Source: a virus. Taken from it: a stretch of 64,000 bases of DNA. The first letter of the stretch is position 1. Each line of letters starts with the position of its first letter. Location of the stretch: positions 1 through 64,000 of IMG/VR virus record IMGVR_UViG_3300023174_000071; one strand, written 5' to 3'. Made by a program: the position numbers and the translations under genes. Below, in pieces: positions 838 through 53,626 of the stretch. Below the pieces are notes generated by a model that was not told the origin of the DNA, made no database searches, and was given only the letters and a program-made list of their open reading frames with translations.

Positions 838-884
838 CTCAAAAAGGATAGCAATCTTCTATAAGCTTTCTAAGTTGGTGATTT

Positions 885-1340
885 ATGCATGAATCTTGGC
901 AGAACGCAACACCGGAACAGCTTTTAGAATGCTTGGAATGGATGAGCGCTATCAATAAAGCAATAGAAGAACGATATCTTTTCTTGCTAAAAGAAAATGC
1001 AGAACTAAAAGAAAAGTTAGCTGAAGCGCAAGATAAAGCTATTGCTTATGATTTAGATCAAGCCGGGATCCAACAAAGAGAGAAAGAAGCGGAGGAGTTG
1101 ATTCAACTTCGATATGAAGTATTCTCTCGAAAAAAAGAAAAGGCTCAACTCATCCAAACCATTAATGAATTTATTGAGTTGTCAAAAGTTGATGGAAAAA
1201 TTTATAATCAAGGAAGATCGGAAGGCGTAAGCGATGTTGCGGCTATGCTTCGCGCTATTCTTGATCCATCCGATGAACAAATGCTAAATCTTGACGGGCT
1301 TCTAAAACTAGTTGCTTATCATAAAGAGCTTTCTACTTAA
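885..1340 (+). CDS. hypothetical coiled-coil protein
   Basis: 151 aa, heptad-like E/K/L-rich helical sequence. Confidence 0.7.
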   Translation: MHESWQNATPEQLLECLEWMSAINKAIEERYLFLLKENAELKEKLAEAQDKAIAYDLDQAGIQQREKEAEELIQLRYEVFSRKKEKAQLIQTINEFIELSKVDGKIYNQGRSEGVSDVAAMLRAILDPSDEQMLNLDGLLKLVAYHKELST

Positions 1341-1410: not shown

Positions 1411-1440
1411 TTGCTGCGGCTGAGAATCTTTTGGTAATAT
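1411..1440 (+). promoter_or_regulatory. sigma70-like promoter for the ncRNA/tRNA-Ser unit
   Basis: TTGCTG (1411-1416), 18 bp spacer, extended -10 TG-n-TAATAT (1432-1440); predicted start ~1447 coincides with the 5' end of the structured RNA. Confidence 0.45.
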
Positions 1441-1446
1441 AAAGTT

Positions 1447-1802
1447 GTGATGAGATGGAGTTGAACGGGATTAGGCTAATAAAATAATTGCTAAATAAAT
1501 CTAGCAAACTATAGTTAATTTGGTATAACTTAGTCGTGGATATGTAAGTGCTTGCATAAATCAATTCCGTTCGATAGAACGGAGAATCTCTGAAGCCGTG
1601 CAAAGAGATTTGCTTTATGCAAAAAAGTTAAGAGAATTGTTTGGACTAAATCCACTTAATAAAAATAGATCTTAACAAATCTCTTAGCGTACCGTGATGC
1701 TTGGTTTAAAAATCAAGAACAGAATTTAATAAAGCCTGAAATATGATTTTATTAAGTTTTTAGTAACGGAAGCTTAAAGTCTTGTTTGATGAAATCTTGT
1801 TA
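1447..1802 (+). ncRNA. candidate large structured ncRNA of unknown class
   Basis: No credible ORF. Terminal helices 1448-1456/1794-1802 and 1461-1472/1778-1789 (G-U rich on the + strand) enclose four helical domains; see findings. Confidence 0.6.
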
Positions 1803-1814
1803 AGATAATGCTGT

Positions 1815-1905
1815 AGAGGGTTGACCGAGAGGTGAAGGTGCCAGCCTGGAAAGTTGGTTTATGTGTAAAAGCATAACGCGAGTTCGATCCTCGCACCCTC
1901 TGCCA
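1815..1905 (+). tRNA. tRNA-Ser(GGA)
   Basis: Acceptor AGAGGGT/ACCCTCT, discriminator G, encoded CCA; anticodon arm CCAGC-CTGGAAA-GTTGG; long variable arm; T-loop TTCGATC. Confidence 0.95.
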
Positions 1906-2011: not shown

Positions 2012-2764
2012 ATGTCTAATATGGAAAGTCAAAAAAATATTTGCGCTTATGGTTGCGGCAAGCCCGGCATCAAGCAGTTTAAAAACGGCAACTGGTGTTG
2101 CTGCGAAAATGTAAATAGGTGCGAAGCTAAATGTAGAAGAGATTCCGAAAGGAAGGCTGGAATTAATCCACTTGAAAAATGGGGAATACCGCACCCAAAG
2201 GGTGCTACCGGCAAAGCCCCTTGGAATAAGGGAAAGAAATACGAAGAACTCTATGGAGAGGATGGAGCCAAAGAAGTAAAAAGAAAAATAGTAACTAGCG
2301 TGGGGAAAGAACGTTATAAGACAACGTGGGATAGACTCTCTGAAGAAAACAAGCAAAAGCAAAGAGAGCGATGCGCTAAGGTTGGAGCGAAAACGGGAGG
2401 GTACAAAAAAGGATCTGGTCGAGGTCTTTCTGGGTGGTACCAAGGTATCTGGTGTGATAGTAGTTGGGAGCTTGCATTTTTAATATATCATCTTGAGCAT
2501 GATATTAAAATAAAAAGATCTAAATTGGTATTCCCTTATATTTGGGAAGGCAATACTTATAATTATCATCCCGACTTTGAAGTAAATGAAATTGTTTATG
2601 AAATAAAAGGATACATGACAGAAAAAGCGCTCCAAAAGGTAAAGCAGGCTCCAATTGCTATATCTGTAATTGATAAGGAATTAATTAAGCCTTATTTAAA
2701 TTATACAATAAGAAAATATGGAAAAAAGTTTACATATCTGTATGAAACGAATAGTTCTAAGTAG
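2012..2764 (+). CDS. putative free-standing homing endonuclease, PD-(D/E)XK (TnsA-N-like) with Cys-rich/NUMOD-like N-terminus
   Basis: CAYGCG..WCCC N-terminus, PWNKGK motif, WCDSSWELAF...YHPDF...EIKG nuclease motif; directly downstream of tRNA-Ser. Confidence 0.75.
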   Translation: MSNMESQKNICAYGCGKPGIKQFKNGNWCCCENVNRCEAKCRRDSERKAGINPLEKWGIPHPKGATGKAPWNKGKKYEELYGEDGAKEVKRKIVTSVGKERYKTTWDRLSEENKQKQRERCAKVGAKTGGYKKGSGRGLSGWYQGIWCDSSWELAFLIYHLEHDIKIKRSKLVFPYIWEGNTYNYHPDFEVNEIVYEIKGYMTEKALQKVKQAPIAISVIDKELIKPYLNYTIRKYGKKFTYLYETNSSK

Positions 2765-13332: not shown

Positions 13333-13519
13333 TGTTGCTCCATCTCTGCAATTCTTTTAACTGACCGGCTTCATCAACAATTCCGCAACGCTTTAGAAAT
13401 TCAAAACATTCTTCGTCAGAAAGAGATTTGAAGAAAGAAAGCGTTGCAGAGTAAGCAGGAGATGAGTCTTTTTTCGACTCAATCTCCTGCTGGATTTTTT
13501 CTTTTATCTCAGGTAGCAT
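13325..13519 (-). CDS. hypothetical protein
   Basis: Likely start MLPEIKEK at 13519; FLKRCGIVDEAGQL. Confidence 0.55.
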   Translation of the reverse strand: MLPEIKEKIQQEIESKKDSSPAYSATLSFFKSLSDEECFEFLKRCGIVDEAGQLKELQRWSNNE

Positions 13520-14351
13520 TTTCAGAAGGAGGCGCAACTTCTGCTGGCTTGGCAACTTCTGGAGTTGCGGTTGGCTGAGCGACCTCTGCGGGTTTATCTT
13601 CAACCTTTTTTTCCTCAACCTTTTCTGGCGCAACTTCAACCTTAGCCTTTTCTTGCTCAGGTTTTTCTGGAGCAGGAGTCGGAGTTGGTTCTGGAGCCGG
13701 AGTGGGCGCTGGTGCCGGTTGAGCCTTAACTTCTGGTTTAGGTTTTTCTGAAGATTCTGATTTTACGGAAGGCTTGGGTTCCGGTTTTGGTTCAGATTTA
13801 ACTTCGGCTTTTGGTGAAGGCTTTGGTTCTGGTTTTGGTTCCGGCTTAGCTTCAACCTTAACTTCCGGTTTAGTTTCAGCTTTCGGCTTTGGGGCTTCAA
13901 CAGGCTTTGGCTTTTCTTCTTTGCGTAGCCAAGGTGCAATTGGATTACCCTTCTTCCAATCATGTTCATAGCGTTGACGCATTTTAGAAATTCCATCTAG
14001 ATTAACGCCATGCTCATTTCGTGCAGCAAGTTCGGAATCGGTTAGACCGCCATCATAAAGATCTACAACGGTAAGTGTAGCTTTAAACTTTTTGGCCATA
14101 ACAATATATGGCTCCATTTCCCATCGTTCGCAAAATGTATTCGCAACGACAACATCGTTTCCAGCGGTTAGGAAAAATTCCGCACGACTCTGGCACCATT
14201 GATGCGCTTGAGGTAGGGCGGTCGCATTAAATTTATATTGACCATCCACCATGAAGAAGTCATCCGCAGAAACAACTTCACAAGAAAGCTTGTGGGCAAG
14301 GGTTGACTTCCCGGCGCCACTGATACCACGAACCAAAAACAAATCAGCCAT
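13509..14351 (-). CDS. P-loop polynucleotide-kinase-like (AAA_33) protein with Pro/Glu/Lys-rich tail
   Basis: [12 protein letters not shown] Walker A, SADDFF, VVANTF, RNEHGV; ~135 aa PEPK/PAP low-complexity C-terminus. Confidence 0.85.
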
Positions 14352-27738: not shown

Positions 27739-28251
27739 AATCCCTCCGTATTTGCTATAACAAATCATATGGGCGACTTTATTGCTTTGGCGACTCTATG
27801 TATGGGTCAACATTCTAGATTTGTTATAACATTAACTATGCGCCATTTATTCGTCTGCGTTATTTGACGCAAAATAACCTTATTCAGATCATGAGGCAAC
27901 CAATTTGCCTCAAAAGGACAACTCCTCTCTAAAATGAAATTTGTGTGATTTTTTGTGTTCGTAAAAATTCAGCTGCAATCTTTTTTATAAAACTATTTTA
28001 AAAAAGTTTAAATTATTTTTCGCGTTTCTACTAATACGGTAGTGGAACATATGATATATGACCCAAGTAATAGACTAACAGGTTGTAGAAATCACTCAAC
28101 CACTACCCGCTCTGAAATAGAAATAGAATAAAGAGTTAAGAAATAATCTAGTAACTTAGAACATATAGATATATATCATATGTCATTTTTGGCGCTAGCG
28201 ACGATATAAAGCCGATTATTAACGGCTGCCGCTTCGAACTTCCGAAAGAAC

Positions 28252-48607: not shown

Positions 48608-48976
48608 ATGTCAAAACGACTTCTAGGTGTTATGGTTAAGGGTCCAAAGGTTCTCGACAAATCACGAGTTCCTTATGCTATCAAGCAGGCCGCAAAGAAA
48701 GCTCCATTTGAATTTGATGAGCAGAAAGTTGCTTGGGGCGCTCAGGTTGTTCAAGAATTTATTTCTTTTTGGGAAAACCCAACGCATCTAGACGTTGTGA
48801 AGATGCCAGATCCTGACGATAGCAAGAGCGTTATTTTATTTGCTGGCGATTCTGTAGAAGTTCAGATGGGCTCTGCGGGTAAGCTGGAATATCAGCATGA
48901 ACCAAAGGGTCGGGCTTATCAAATTCTCCGAACCTCAATGCTAGCAGGATTTCTTCCTCTATTTGGTTTGCGCTAG
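48608..48976 (+). CDS. hypothetical protein
   Basis: 122 aa, AGGAG RBS. Confidence 0.65.
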   Translation: MSKRLLGVMVKGPKVLDKSRVPYAIKQAAKKAPFEFDEQKVAWGAQVVQEFISFWENPTHLDVVKMPDPDDSKSVILFAGDSVEVQMGSAGKLEYQHEPKGRAYQILRTSMLAGFLPLFGLR

Positions 48977-49237
48977 TTTTTTAATTTCAACAACAAGTGG
49001 CTCCGAACCTTTTATAACTCGGTGCCACGTTCCTTGAGGGATGAAGATTTGTTCTTCGTCCCTTAAGTTTTTTGGAAGTTCATTATCGAATTGTAATTTC
49101 CATCCGCCACATTTCTTGATGGTAACGATTCGATCTTCTAAGTCTGTATGCCAAATTAGTTCTTGAGATGGAGTTGTTGGATCGAATGTTCTTTCCAGAA
49201 CTCCATTTTCATTTCTTTCTTTGAATGGAAAATTCAT
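48959..49237 (-). CDS. cupin-like protein
   Basis: WHTDLEDR...IFIPQGTWHRVIKG. Confidence 0.75.
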   Translation of the reverse strand: MNFPFKERNENGVLERTFDPTTPSQELIWHTDLEDRIVTIKKCGGWKLQFDNELPKNLRDEEQIFIPQGTWHRVIKGSEPLVVEIKKLAQTK

Positions 49238-49249
49238 TTGGCTAAAATT

Positions 49250-49900
49250 TTACCAATTTGGTGGAAATCTGCAAGCCCAATATCCGGCGGTTGTTTTATC
49301 TTTCTTTGCTTTGCAGTTATGTCTTGCTCTAAAACTTTTTCTTGCCTTAGCGTTACCCGCTCTTGTTTTTAGATTCGGATCGCCAAATGTGATTCGCTTT
49401 ACTCTGTCGCCATCTTTAACATAAACAACAGATTTTTTCTTTCCATATCCAGGTTCGCCCTTTCTTATGTATCTTGGCTTATTGATGGAAACATTTTTTC
49501 CTTTATATTCCGCCGCAATCTTAAGCATTTCATCTTCGTTTTCTAAAGCAATTGGGCAATCGAGAGGAACGAGTTGACCTTCATATTCGGCAAACTTTCC
49601 AAAATCACTATCTAAAATTTCATGGCTAGATTTGTCTACGATGAGTTTGCCTTGTTCAACCATTTCTCTGGCTTCATTAATTAGATAGAAGTGACTCTCT
49701 GAAAATTCTCTAAAAACAGGATCGGTGAGGGGGATATCATTTTCTAAATGGTAAGCTAAACCATCTGAAAATGAAGCGGTCTTATCGAGTAGTATGATAT
49801 TGCGACCGTTACCGTCTAAAATTCCCTGAAGAAGTAAAGCTTCTTTTTTAAGATCTGCTTGTTTTAGAAATTGAATAAGATGATTTATTTTTTCTTTCAT
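49250..49900 (-). CDS. conserved phage protein with tagged N-terminus and basic C-terminal domain
   Basis: GAGG RBS before MKEKINHLIQFLKQADLKKEA; C-domain ITFGDP...RKSFRARHNC...TAGYWACR. Confidence 0.75.
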   Translation of the reverse strand: MKEKINHLIQFLKQADLKKEALLLQGILDGNGRNIILLDKTASFSDGLAYHLENDIPLTDPVFREFSESHFYLINEAREMVEQGKLIVDKSSHEILDSDFGKFAEYEGQLVPLDCPIALENEDEMLKIAAEYKGKNVSINKPRYIRKGEPGYGKKKSVVYVKDGDRVKRITFGDPNLKTRAGNAKARKSFRARHNCKAKKDKTTAGYWACRFPPNW

Positions 49901-53214: not shown

Positions 53215-53626
53215 CATGCCGCTAAAAAAAGAAAAGATATTTAATTGTATCGAATTCTTTTTTGAATTATTGATATTTTCTATTTGCATTATTACATTTT
53301 TGATAATGAAAACTATCATGAATGTTAAAAATAAAATAACAAATTGCATCATCAAAATGCTAAAAAACTAACATGATCATAGGAGTTCAAAACTAAAACA
53401 GAATAGAGGGAGAGAGAGATGAAGCCAATTGATTTTTTGGTTTGGTTCTTAGATATATTTTTATTTTTCCCACTATCTAATTTTGTTTTTTGGTTAATCG
53501 AGCACCCCTATTGGTTTTATAGTTTAACGTTTTTCACCATTGCAATGAGTTTGTTTTTTCTTTACAAAACAAAAAATCAATGAATTTTCCAATTCTGATT
53601 GAAATCAGTTCAATTAGAGAGGGAAC

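What the first reader, a model, noticed from the sequence alone, without database searches (positions are those of the whole stretch)
1447..1802. ~355 nt multi-junction structured RNA directly upstream of tRNA-Ser
Seen: a stretch without a credible ORF that begins at a predicted sigma70 start and ends 12 nt before tRNA-Ser. Its ends pair (1448-1456/1794-1802; 1461-1472/1778-1789, several G-U pairs, which favours the + strand). Four domains lie inside. A: GGCTAA/TTAGTC (1474-1535) holding TTGCTA/TAGCAA and AGTTA/TAACT hairpins. B: TTGCATAAA/TTTATGCAA (1552-1622) holding TTCCGTTC-GATA-GAACGGAG and AATCTCT/AGAGATT. C: GTTAAGAGAATTGTT/AACAAATCTCTTAGC (1627-1688). D: CCGT/ACGG enclosing CTTGGTT/AATCAAG and AATTTAATAAA/TTTATTAAGTT. 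Possible long-range pairs are GTGGAT (1536) with ATCCAC (1650) and TAAGT (1545) with GCTTA (1772). Established: large phage ncRNAs such as GOLLD and ROOL often lie beside tRNAs, but they are longer. I cannot assign this RNA to a known class.
Basis: partly seen in the sequence, partly recalled or inferred. Interest (0 to 1): 0.75.

Follow-up and report, generated by a model that had tools for sequence, protein, structure and literature searches.

The report
Unclassified structured RNA beside phage tRNA-Ser
A 356-base non-coding stretch just upstream of a serine tRNA gene in an uncultivated freshwater jumbo phage very probably makes a folded RNA of no described family, and its 300-base core is present in some related phages and missing in at least one.

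Summary
Window 1447-1802 lies in a 474-nt ORF-free gap that ends 12 nt before tRNA-Ser(GGA). On the + strand it folds at -95.3 kcal/mol against -66.2 for shuffles (z -5.8). Its two ends form a 27-bp helix with 10 G-U pairs. That helix exists only in the + strand RNA: -25.3 against -4.1 kcal/mol, with 7 of 6918 genome controls as good. No Rfam family matches.

The new evidence comes from Logan contigs of three other aquatic or subsurface runs, which carry the core (about 1472-1771) at roughly 80-98% identity. Their substitutions break fewer + strand pairs than position-shuffled ones: 8 against 14.9±2.3, P≈0.003. Read on the - strand the figures are 12 against 12.9. One contig lacks 1464-1768 but keeps both flanks and a tRNA-Ser.

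No homologue could be fetched as sequence, and 36 terminase-related phage records lack it. Expression and function are untested.

My best reading (0.6) is an accessory structured ncRNA made together with the tRNA, a new variant of the tRNA-linked phage ncRNA kind. This scan has not noted it on other DNA.

The parts
1432..1440 (+). Extended -10-like element (TGnTAATAT). A start near 1447 would follow from it.
   Evidence: Read by eye. The promoter scan did not list it. The stretch 1389-1463 is kept with 3 differences in contig r12 of run X5.
1447..1802 (+). The whole predicted structured RNA: a closing helix plus four internal domains.
   Evidence: MFE -95.3 kcal/mol, z -5.81. No Rfam match. 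Single copy in the 128-kb record.
1448..1477 (+). 5' strand of the closing helix P1/P2.
   Evidence: It pairs with 1771-1802 through 27 pairs, 10 of them G-U. The duplex is -25.3 kcal/mol on + and -4.1 on -.
1464..1768 (+). Core module of 305 nt, absent from one related contig. AACGG lies at both borders (1464-1468 and 1765-1769).
   Evidence: Contig r12 of run X5 joins 1463 to 1769 with 5 other letters between them (tables 5, 5c, 8).
1474..1535 (+). Domain A: two small hairpins, with weak support.
   Evidence: z -1.52. The linked changes at 1514 and 1529 give a non-pair in 3 contigs.
1552..1622 (+). Domain B: a three-way junction made of a 9-bp stem and two hairpins. The loop at 1592-1603 shows no listed variation.
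   Evidence: z -4.67. No listed differences in 1585-1612. The first hairpin has a compensated, longer stem in r10, read by eye from the loose end.
1627..1688 (+). Domain C: a long interrupted hairpin with a variable tip.
   Evidence: z -4.56. Compensatory pairs are 1638/1677 (U-A to C-G) and 1648/1666 (A-U to G-C) in r10.
1692..1769 (+). Domain D: a 4-bp base enclosing two hairpins. The junction 1688-1704 shows no listed variation.
   Evidence: z -2.72 on +, against -1.11 on -. Changes at 1713, 1731, 1732 and 1734 keep their pairs through G-U.
1815..1905 (+). tRNA-Ser(GGA), 12 nt downstream of the RNA.
   Evidence: ARAGORN. Rfam tRNA at 51.6 bits.
2012..2764 (+). Putative free-standing endonuclease gene with its own promoter-like site at 1968-1995.
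   Evidence: PHROG 15427 'endonuclease', E 1.8e-9. No Pfam or PDB match. Promoter-like site scoring 10 of 12.

Best explanation
Window 1447-1802 encodes an accessory, highly folded non-coding RNA of an undescribed family, read from the + strand.

Inferred course of events. Transcription starts near 1447 and runs on into tRNA-Ser(GGA). RNase P cutting at the tRNA 5' end (1814/1815) sets the RNA free. The 27-bp G-U-rich helix formed by its two ends either shields it from exonucleases or acts as a double-strand processing stalk of the RNase III type. The roughly 300-nt core then acts in trans. It has domains B, C and D, and three invariant single-stranded CGUG-containing blocks at 1535, 1597 and 1693. 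It most likely acts by binding a protein or by assembling with itself, as other tRNA-linked phage RNAs do.

What is shown: non-coding status, excess folding, strand-specific closing helix, recurrence of the core in other metagenomes, pair-sparing variation, and presence/absence among relatives.

What is inferred: promoter, co-transcription, processing, and any function.
For: - The gap is 474 nt without a credible ORF. The - strand frame 1394-1603 has no protein relative.
- Related contigs carry indels of 2, 1, 1, 2 and 7 letters across 1617-1751, none a multiple of three (table 4).
- Folding on + gives z -5.81, against -3.86 on -.
- The closing helix is -25.3 kcal/mol on + and -4.1 on -. Of 6918 genome controls, 7 are as good. 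Ten of its 27 pairs are G-U, so it is not a DNA inverted repeat.
- Five Logan contigs from runs X3, X4 and X5 (three studies) carry the core: 6 differences over 244 nt, 17 over 298, 16 over 297, 17 over 170, and 27 plus 11 gap letters over 181.
- Run X2, a fourth study, holds both borders of the RNA with 0 to 1 differences.
- I used the 39 listed substitutions inside the RNA. On + they give 14 kept and 8 broken pair states, against 14.9±2.3 broken in 5000 position shuffles (P 0.003). The same test read on - gives 12 against 12.9 (P 0.44).
- Two pairs change on both sides and stay paired.
- By eye, the 28-30-letter loose ends of r9 and of the r14 type (table 7) again offer a G-run on the left and a C-run on the right. 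The window has G-U pairs at that place.
Against: - No RNA run was available, so transcription is unproven.
- No homologue could be brought in as sequence, so no proper covariation test (R-scape or RNAalifold) was possible.
- The variant test uses five related partial contigs, an incomplete table (42 differences were not shown) and my own assignment of differences to contigs by depth.
- Eight pair states are broken, including two double changes to non-pairs (1514/1529 in 3 contigs, 1635/1680 in r10).
- The region ranks only 9th of 1060 windows for composition-corrected folding, and other gaps reach z -2.5 to -4.3.
- Domain A is not significant.
- The RNA is absent from 36 of 36 terminase-related records and from one close relative of the locus. 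It is therefore dispensable.
- The core is far more uniform (up to 94-98% identity) than its flanks (under 80%). That fits recent exchange as well as it fits constraint.
Confidence: 0.6

Rival explanations
1. The 305-nt core is a small non-autonomous mobile DNA element, or a segment spread by gene conversion from the neighbouring endonuclease gene. It landed in the loop of a leader hairpin of tRNA-Ser, and its hairpins serve DNA-level mobility rather than an RNA.
For: - One contig lacks exactly 1464-1768 while keeping both flanks at 92-96% identity.
- AACGG lies at both borders.
- The core is 94% identical in r9, whose flanks differ and are G+C-richer, while the core itself has 30% G+C.
- A putative endonuclease gene lies 200 nt downstream.
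- Free-standing homing endonucleases in the T4 tRNA cluster co-convert flanking DNA (PMC2330249, passages read).
Against: - There are no terminal inverted repeats. The end pairing vanishes on the - strand (-4.1 kcal/mol), so it is RNA pairing.
- It is single copy in the 128-kb record.
- It is absent from 36 related records and from every collection scan.
- The 'empty' contig keeps the orphan 3' strand (1771-1786) whose partner lies inside the missing part. That looks like a deletion, not an unfilled target.
- The 5 letters at the joint are not a clean single copy of the repeat.
- Variants spare + strand pairs only.
Confidence: 0.12
2. Only the outer helix matters. It is a cis-acting processing or stabilising stalk of the tRNA-Ser precursor, and the core is a tolerated expansion of its loop with no function of its own.
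For: - The relative without the core keeps 1389-1463 and 1769-1829, that is the helix strands and a tRNA-Ser(GGA) (the anticodon was read by eye from the loose end).
- The helix is the most strand-specific feature.
- Phage tRNA precursors are processed from multi-gene transcripts by RNase P (PMC11143913, passages read).
Against: - The core is much better conserved than the helix strands across contigs.
- Blocks 1530-1549, 1585-1612 and 1688-1704 show no listed change.
- Variants spare pairs inside the core.
- An r14-type contig has the core but nothing like the tRNA within 245 nt downstream at 80% likeness (tables 7, 8).
Confidence: 0.13
3. It is an A+T-rich spacer with chance hairpins and makes no functional RNA.
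For: - Intergenic gaps of this genome often fold better than shuffles: z -2.4 to -4.3.
- The region ranks 9th, not 1st, of 1060 windows.
- Domain A is no better than shuffles.
- It is dispensable in relatives.
Against: - The closing helix is matched by only 7 of 6918 controls.
- Sparing of pairs is specific to the + strand (P 0.003).
- A neutral spacer would not stay 90-98% identical while its flanks fall below 80%.
Confidence: 0.1
4. The core is a self-splicing or otherwise excised intron within the tRNA leader.
For: - Presence/absence among close relatives.
- The missing segment ends in G (table 5).
- An endonuclease gene is nearby.
- Group I introns do invade tRNA genes in bacteria and phages (PMC3984707, abstract in the search listing only).
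Against: - No group I or group II model appears even at E<=10.
- It does not interrupt any recognisable gene.
- The 5' flank pairs with the far 3' flank, not with the start of the insert, so there is no P1-like helix.
Confidence: 0.03

Closest known systems
GOLLD and ROOL RNAs (large ornate RNAs of phages and prophages)
   Same: They are phage-encoded, lie next to tRNA genes, are multi-domain and highly folded, have no known function and are not needed by all relatives. The paper states that both are 'often near tRNA islands' (bioRxiv 10.1101/2024.12.08.627333, passages read).
   Different: There is no match to either Rfam model, even at E<=10. This RNA is 356 nt, whereas many GOLLD members exceed 800 nt. 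No pseudoknots are supported. Only a handful of representatives are known. Self-assembly is untested.
The bacteriophage T4 tRNA region: small stable 'species 1 and 2' RNAs made with the tRNAs, and the free-standing homing endonuclease gene segB inside the cluster
   Same: The layout is the same: a non-tRNA RNA, a tRNA and a free-standing endonuclease gene, in a segment that differs between related phages. SegB converts the flanking tRNA region of a co-infecting phage (PMC2330249, passages read).
   Different: The species 1 and 2 RNAs are recalled from memory and were not checked in any call. SegB is of the GIY-YIG type, whereas the gene here matches only a PHROG 'endonuclease' family. No cleavage site or homing is shown here.
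Candidate structured RNAs (csRNAs) predicted from IMG/VR
   Same: These are structured RNA candidates from uncultivated phages. Some are tRNA-like or lie next to tRNAs (PMC10690425, passages read).
   Different: I could not check whether this RNA is among them.
rRNA-type processing stalks (flanks of a stable RNA pairing into a long helix that RNase III cuts)
   Same: A 27-bp helix formed by the two flanks encloses the folded core. It is long enough for a double-strand-specific nuclease. This is established knowledge, recalled.
   Different: No cleavage was tested. The helix has 10 G-U pairs and two interruptions.

Membership tests
GOLLD / ROOL / raiA / HEARO / OLE / RNase P / tmRNA / 6S (Rfam families) | Match to the family's covariance model | tested here: not met
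   The whole-window cmscan at gathering score found only 4 tRNAs. In 1300-2050 at E<=10 the 6 matches were the tRNA and five eukaryotic snoRNA/scaRNA models far below their gathering scores. ARAGORN found no tmRNA.
GOLLD / ROOL kind (not family) | Encoded by a phage next to tRNA genes | tested here: met
   The RNA is 12 nt upstream of tRNA-Ser, in a virus record with a terminase gene.
GOLLD / ROOL kind (not family) | Forms RNA-only multimers | not testable with these tools
   This needs native gels or cryo-EM.
Group I intron | Conserved catalytic core recognised by the Rfam model, and interruption of a gene that the excision restores | tested here: not met
   No intron model appears at E<=10. 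No ORF or RNA gene spans the insert.
MITE-like non-autonomous transposon | Terminal inverted repeats at the DNA level | tested here: not met
   The end pairing is -25.3 kcal/mol on + but -4.1 on -. Ten of 27 pairs are G-U.
MITE-like non-autonomous transposon | Several copies per genome | tested here: not met
   There is one match in the 128-kb record by BLAST and by model R1. The record is only 38% complete.
MITE-like non-autonomous transposon | Target-site duplication and unfilled sites | tested here: inconclusive
   AACGG lies at 1464 and 1765. One contig lacks 1464-1768, but it has 5 unlike letters at the joint and keeps an orphan helix strand.
TnpB/IscB guide (omega) RNA | Lies at the end of an element that carries tnpB or iscB | tested here: not met
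The record holds no similar DNA. There is no HEARO hit.

The most novel reading that the evidence does not exclude
The core may be a mobile RNA gene. On this reading it is a roughly 300-nt structured module that moves or is exchanged between unrelated phage genomes and settles inside a helix formed by its flanks. Its own 5' end (1464-1477) would pair with the target's downstream flank (1771-1786), so choice of target or excision would be guided by RNA or DNA pairing. That mode of spread is not described for any known element.
Probability: 0.08. Interest if true: 0.85.

Novelty: new variant of a known kind. Interest (0 to 1): 0.5.

Why it matters
Large folded RNAs next to phage tRNA genes (GOLLD, ROOL) are among the few widespread RNA classes whose function is still unknown. 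A smaller, unrelated example in freshwater jumbo phages would show that the link between tRNA genes and ornate RNAs is a general feature of phage biology rather than a quirk of two families. It comes with natural versions that carry or lack its core. At 300-356 nt it is easy to transcribe, probe and image. The natural core-less relative is a ready-made control for asking what the RNA does to tRNA-Ser processing or to infection.

Tried and rejected
Searches for homologues that found nothing usable:
- blastn against 50,697 GenBank phage records. E 1e-5 gave none. E 10 gave 44 records, all short matches, the listed ones in coding regions or unannotated records, with E>=0.3.
- Window words and patterns scanned in viral contigs and metagenome contigs: 0 matches each.
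- Genome contigs: 3 matches, which the alignment showed to be chance hits in G+C-rich bacterial DNA.
- Flanking proteins as anchors. ORF 885-1337 and ORF 2012-2761 have no relatives in viral contigs.
- ORF 885-1337 has two relatives among 5.8 billion proteins (P0001 at 74%, P0002 at 90% over 60% of the query). Their contigs could not be reached (P0001 also has no match in the phages collection).
- 80 terminase-related IMG/VR loci were fetched. Of their records, 20 were searched with the DNA (only chance matches with E>=0.002), 20 with the upstream protein (0 of 20), 16 with the tRNA (2 weak matches; one lies in a tRNA-Gly gene and the other locus holds no tRNA) and 36 (G000 included) with model R1 (only G000 itself; one E 0.3 match in G017).
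- The other 45 of the 80 records, all small, were not searched.
- The terminase has at most 26% identity to cultured phages.

Other negative results:
- Antisense targets. The longest exact complements of the conserved blocks elsewhere in the record are 10-12 nt, about what chance gives.
- No repeated promoter-like word is shared with the rest of the genome.
- The - strand ORF read as a protein has no homologue.
- Expression: no RNA holder was listed.
- The endonuclease has no Pfam match even at E 10 and no PDB relative.
- Earlier notes of this scan hold no look-alike.

Readings I rejected:
- tRNA remnant or T-arm reading of hairpin 1566-1583. The loop letters vary (1572, 1573, 1576) and ARAGORN finds nothing there.
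- CsrB-type sponge. I counted 6 GGA by eye, about my rough expectation; no call made this count.
- The flank pairing of r9 and r14 was judged by eye only. Their letters are not session sequence, so I did not type them into any tool.

Closed supplements of PMC10690425 may list this RNA.

Full report
Setting. The window is the first 64 kb of a 128,325-bp IMG/VR virus record that CheckV rates 38% complete. It has 37.8% G+C. It carries a large terminase gene, and by the first residues printed (my reading, no search) also two GroEL-like genes, a DnaE-like gene and a CCA-adding-like gene. It is therefore a fragment of an uncultivated jumbo phage. Eighty IMG/VR loci encode a terminase 48-71% identical to it, including a 332-kb record rated 99% complete. 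Cultured phages reach at most 26% identity. Runs that hold the stretch are lake, freshwater, aquatic and subsurface metagenomes.

The observation. Between the stop of ORF 885-1340 and tRNA-Ser(GGA) at 1815-1905 lie 474 nt without a credible ORF. On the + strand, 1447-1802 folds to -95.3 kcal/mol. Dinucleotide shuffles give -66.2±5.0, so z = -5.81. The reverse complement reaches only z -3.86. By domain, B (z -4.67) and C (z -4.56) are strong, D is moderate (z -2.72) and A is not significant (z -1.52).

The closing helix. The most telling feature is the helix formed by the two ends. Its 27 pairs, 10 of them G-U, give -25.3 kcal/mol on the + strand and -4.1 kcal/mol on the other. Only 7 of 6918 equally spaced control pairs from the genome do as well. 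This is RNA pairing, not a DNA inverted repeat.

Against over-reading the folding. After regression on composition the region ranks 9th of 1060 windows of 356 nt. Two other gaps of the window give z -2.4 to -4.3.

Known families. The whole-window cmscan finds only the four tRNAs. A permissive scan of 1300-2050 adds five eukaryotic snoRNA/scaRNA models far under their thresholds. ARAGORN sees no tRNA or tmRNA inside the region. GenBank phages hold nothing similar.

Relatives. None could be fetched as sequence. A single-sequence covariance model of 1536-1720 matched only the window's own record among 36 records of the terminase family. Neither the upstream protein nor the tRNA has a counterpart in those records. 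The RNA is therefore not part of the conserved core of this phage lineage.

Logan contigs. Laying the Logan contigs of four runs on 880-2800 gave the only comparative data, and they are informative.
- Run X2, from another study, holds 151-nt contigs identical to the window across both borders of the RNA (1345-1495 and 1671-1821, 0 and 1 differences). The arrangement is therefore not an assembly artefact.
- Runs X3, X4 and X5 hold five contigs with the core: r4 (1482-1725, 6 differences), r9 (1472-1769, 17), r14 (1475-1771, 16 plus 4 gap letters), r15 (1562-1731, 17) and r10 (1589-1769, 27 plus 11 gap letters).
- In r9, r10 and r14 the alignment at 80% likeness stops at 1769-1771 on the right. 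In r9 and r14 it stops at 1472-1475 on the left, and the contigs go on with unlike letters.
- All indels are of 1, 2 or 7 letters, which excludes a coding frame.
- One X5 contig (r12, 254 nt) matches 1389-1463 (3 differences) and 1769-1829 (5 differences) with only five other letters in place of 1464-1768. Beyond 1829 it runs into what I read by eye as a diverged tRNA-Ser with the same anticodon.

Do the variants respect the fold? I assigned the 39 listed substitutions inside the RNA to contigs by their depth values, and judged each against the MFE pairs. There were 14 kept and 8 broken pair states, and 14 changed positions are unpaired.
- Two pairs are compensated on both sides (1638/1677 and 1648/1666). 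Several A-to-G or U-to-C changes keep a pair only as G-U on the + strand (1631, 1713, 1731, 1732).
- Two double changes end in non-pairs (1514/1529 in three contigs; 1635/1680 in r10, next to indels).
- When the same substitutions are moved to random positions with the same reference base, 14.9±2.3 pair states break. The observed 8 is reached in 0.3% of 5000 shuffles. Read on the - strand the observed 12 is ordinary (12.9±2.2, P 0.44).
- The caveats are real. The test rests on five related partial contigs and a table that hides 42 less-supported differences, and the structure was derived from the reference.
- By eye, the loose end of r10 shows the first hairpin of B rebuilt with a U-A to C-G change and two extra pairs. 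The loose ends of r9 and of the r14 type offer a G-run on the left and a C-run on the right, where the window has G-U pairs. I did not compute these, because the letters are not session sequence.

What the presence/absence means. The missing piece is bounded by AACGG on both sides (1464 and 1765). The core is much more uniform than its flanks. In r9 it sits between G+C-richer flanks although it has only 30% G+C itself. That pattern invites a mobile-element reading. Against it:
- there are no DNA-level terminal repeats;
- the record holds one copy;
- nothing turned up in related records;
- the core-less contig retains the 3' strand 1771-1786 whose partner (1464-1477) lies inside the missing part.

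The last point is what a deletion between short repeats leaves, not what an unfilled target looks like. I therefore read the core-less form as a deletion. I read the whole as an accessory RNA gene in a mosaic, fast-changing part of the genome. The upstream gene also changes partner after 1120 in X4, and P0002 diverges after residue 80.

The endonuclease gene. The gene 200 nt downstream of the tRNA matches only a PHROG endonuclease family. It may help such segments to spread by co-conversion, as SegB does for the T4 tRNA region (PMC2330249, passages). Nothing here tests that.

Mechanism. Shown: a non-coding, strongly folded stretch whose strand-specific closing helix, recurrence and pair-sparing variation point to a + strand RNA. 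Inferred:
- a start near 1447, after an extended -10 look-alike at 1432-1440 that I saw by eye and the scan did not list;
- read-through into the tRNA, since no terminator-like site lies between them;
- release by RNase P at 1814/1815, and possibly by a double-strand nuclease in the stalk;
- a trans function carried by the invariant single-stranded blocks. Each contains CGUG (1535, 1597, 1693). I roughly expected 0.5 occurrences, by my own arithmetic and not by a call.

I found no antisense target in the record. The closest known kind is the tRNA-linked ornate phage RNAs GOLLD and ROOL, whose functions are also unknown. Membership in either family was tested and is not met.

Verdict. It is probably (0.6) a real, undescribed, accessory structured RNA. 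Interest is moderate, because representatives are few, expression is unproven and function is open.

Noticed in passing
window 2012-2764: This 250-aa ORF directly after tRNA-Ser has an N-terminal Cys-rich stretch and a C-terminal part matching PHROG 'endonuclease' families (best E 1.8e-9). It has no Pfam or PDB match, and its own promoter-like site lies at 1968-1995. It may be a free-standing homing endonuclease in a tRNA region. An 88%-identical piece (2204-2520) occurs in run X5.
   Followed up: partly
window 53215-53626: This 412-nt gap folds with z -4.32 on + and -1.96 on -. It contains a purine-rich stretch followed by ATG near 53415, so it may hold a small membrane-protein gene rather than an RNA.
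   Followed up: partly
window 13351-13706; G000 93985-94340 and window 48951-49306: These are the strongest composition-corrected folding windows of the genome scan (-4.19, -3.55 and -3.09 sd, + strand). The first has 45% G+C, well above the genome mean. I did not look at them further.
   Followed up: no
window 880-1340: The upstream gene is mosaic. P0002 (ENA) is 90% identical over the first 80 residues or so and then unrelated, and an X4 contig leaves the window's sequence at 1120. This suggests a recombination breakpoint inside the gene.
   Followed up: partly
window 27769-28251: This 483-nt gap folds moderately on both strands (z -2.5 and -2.4). No Rfam match was found in the whole-window scan.
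   Followed up: partly
G000 72032-73501, 79226-80839, 111167-112825, 120937-123288: Outside the window, the record has ORFs whose first residues look like a lysyl-tRNA-synthetase-type protein, two GroEL-type chaperonins and a CCA-adding enzyme. This was read from N-termini only.
   Followed up: no
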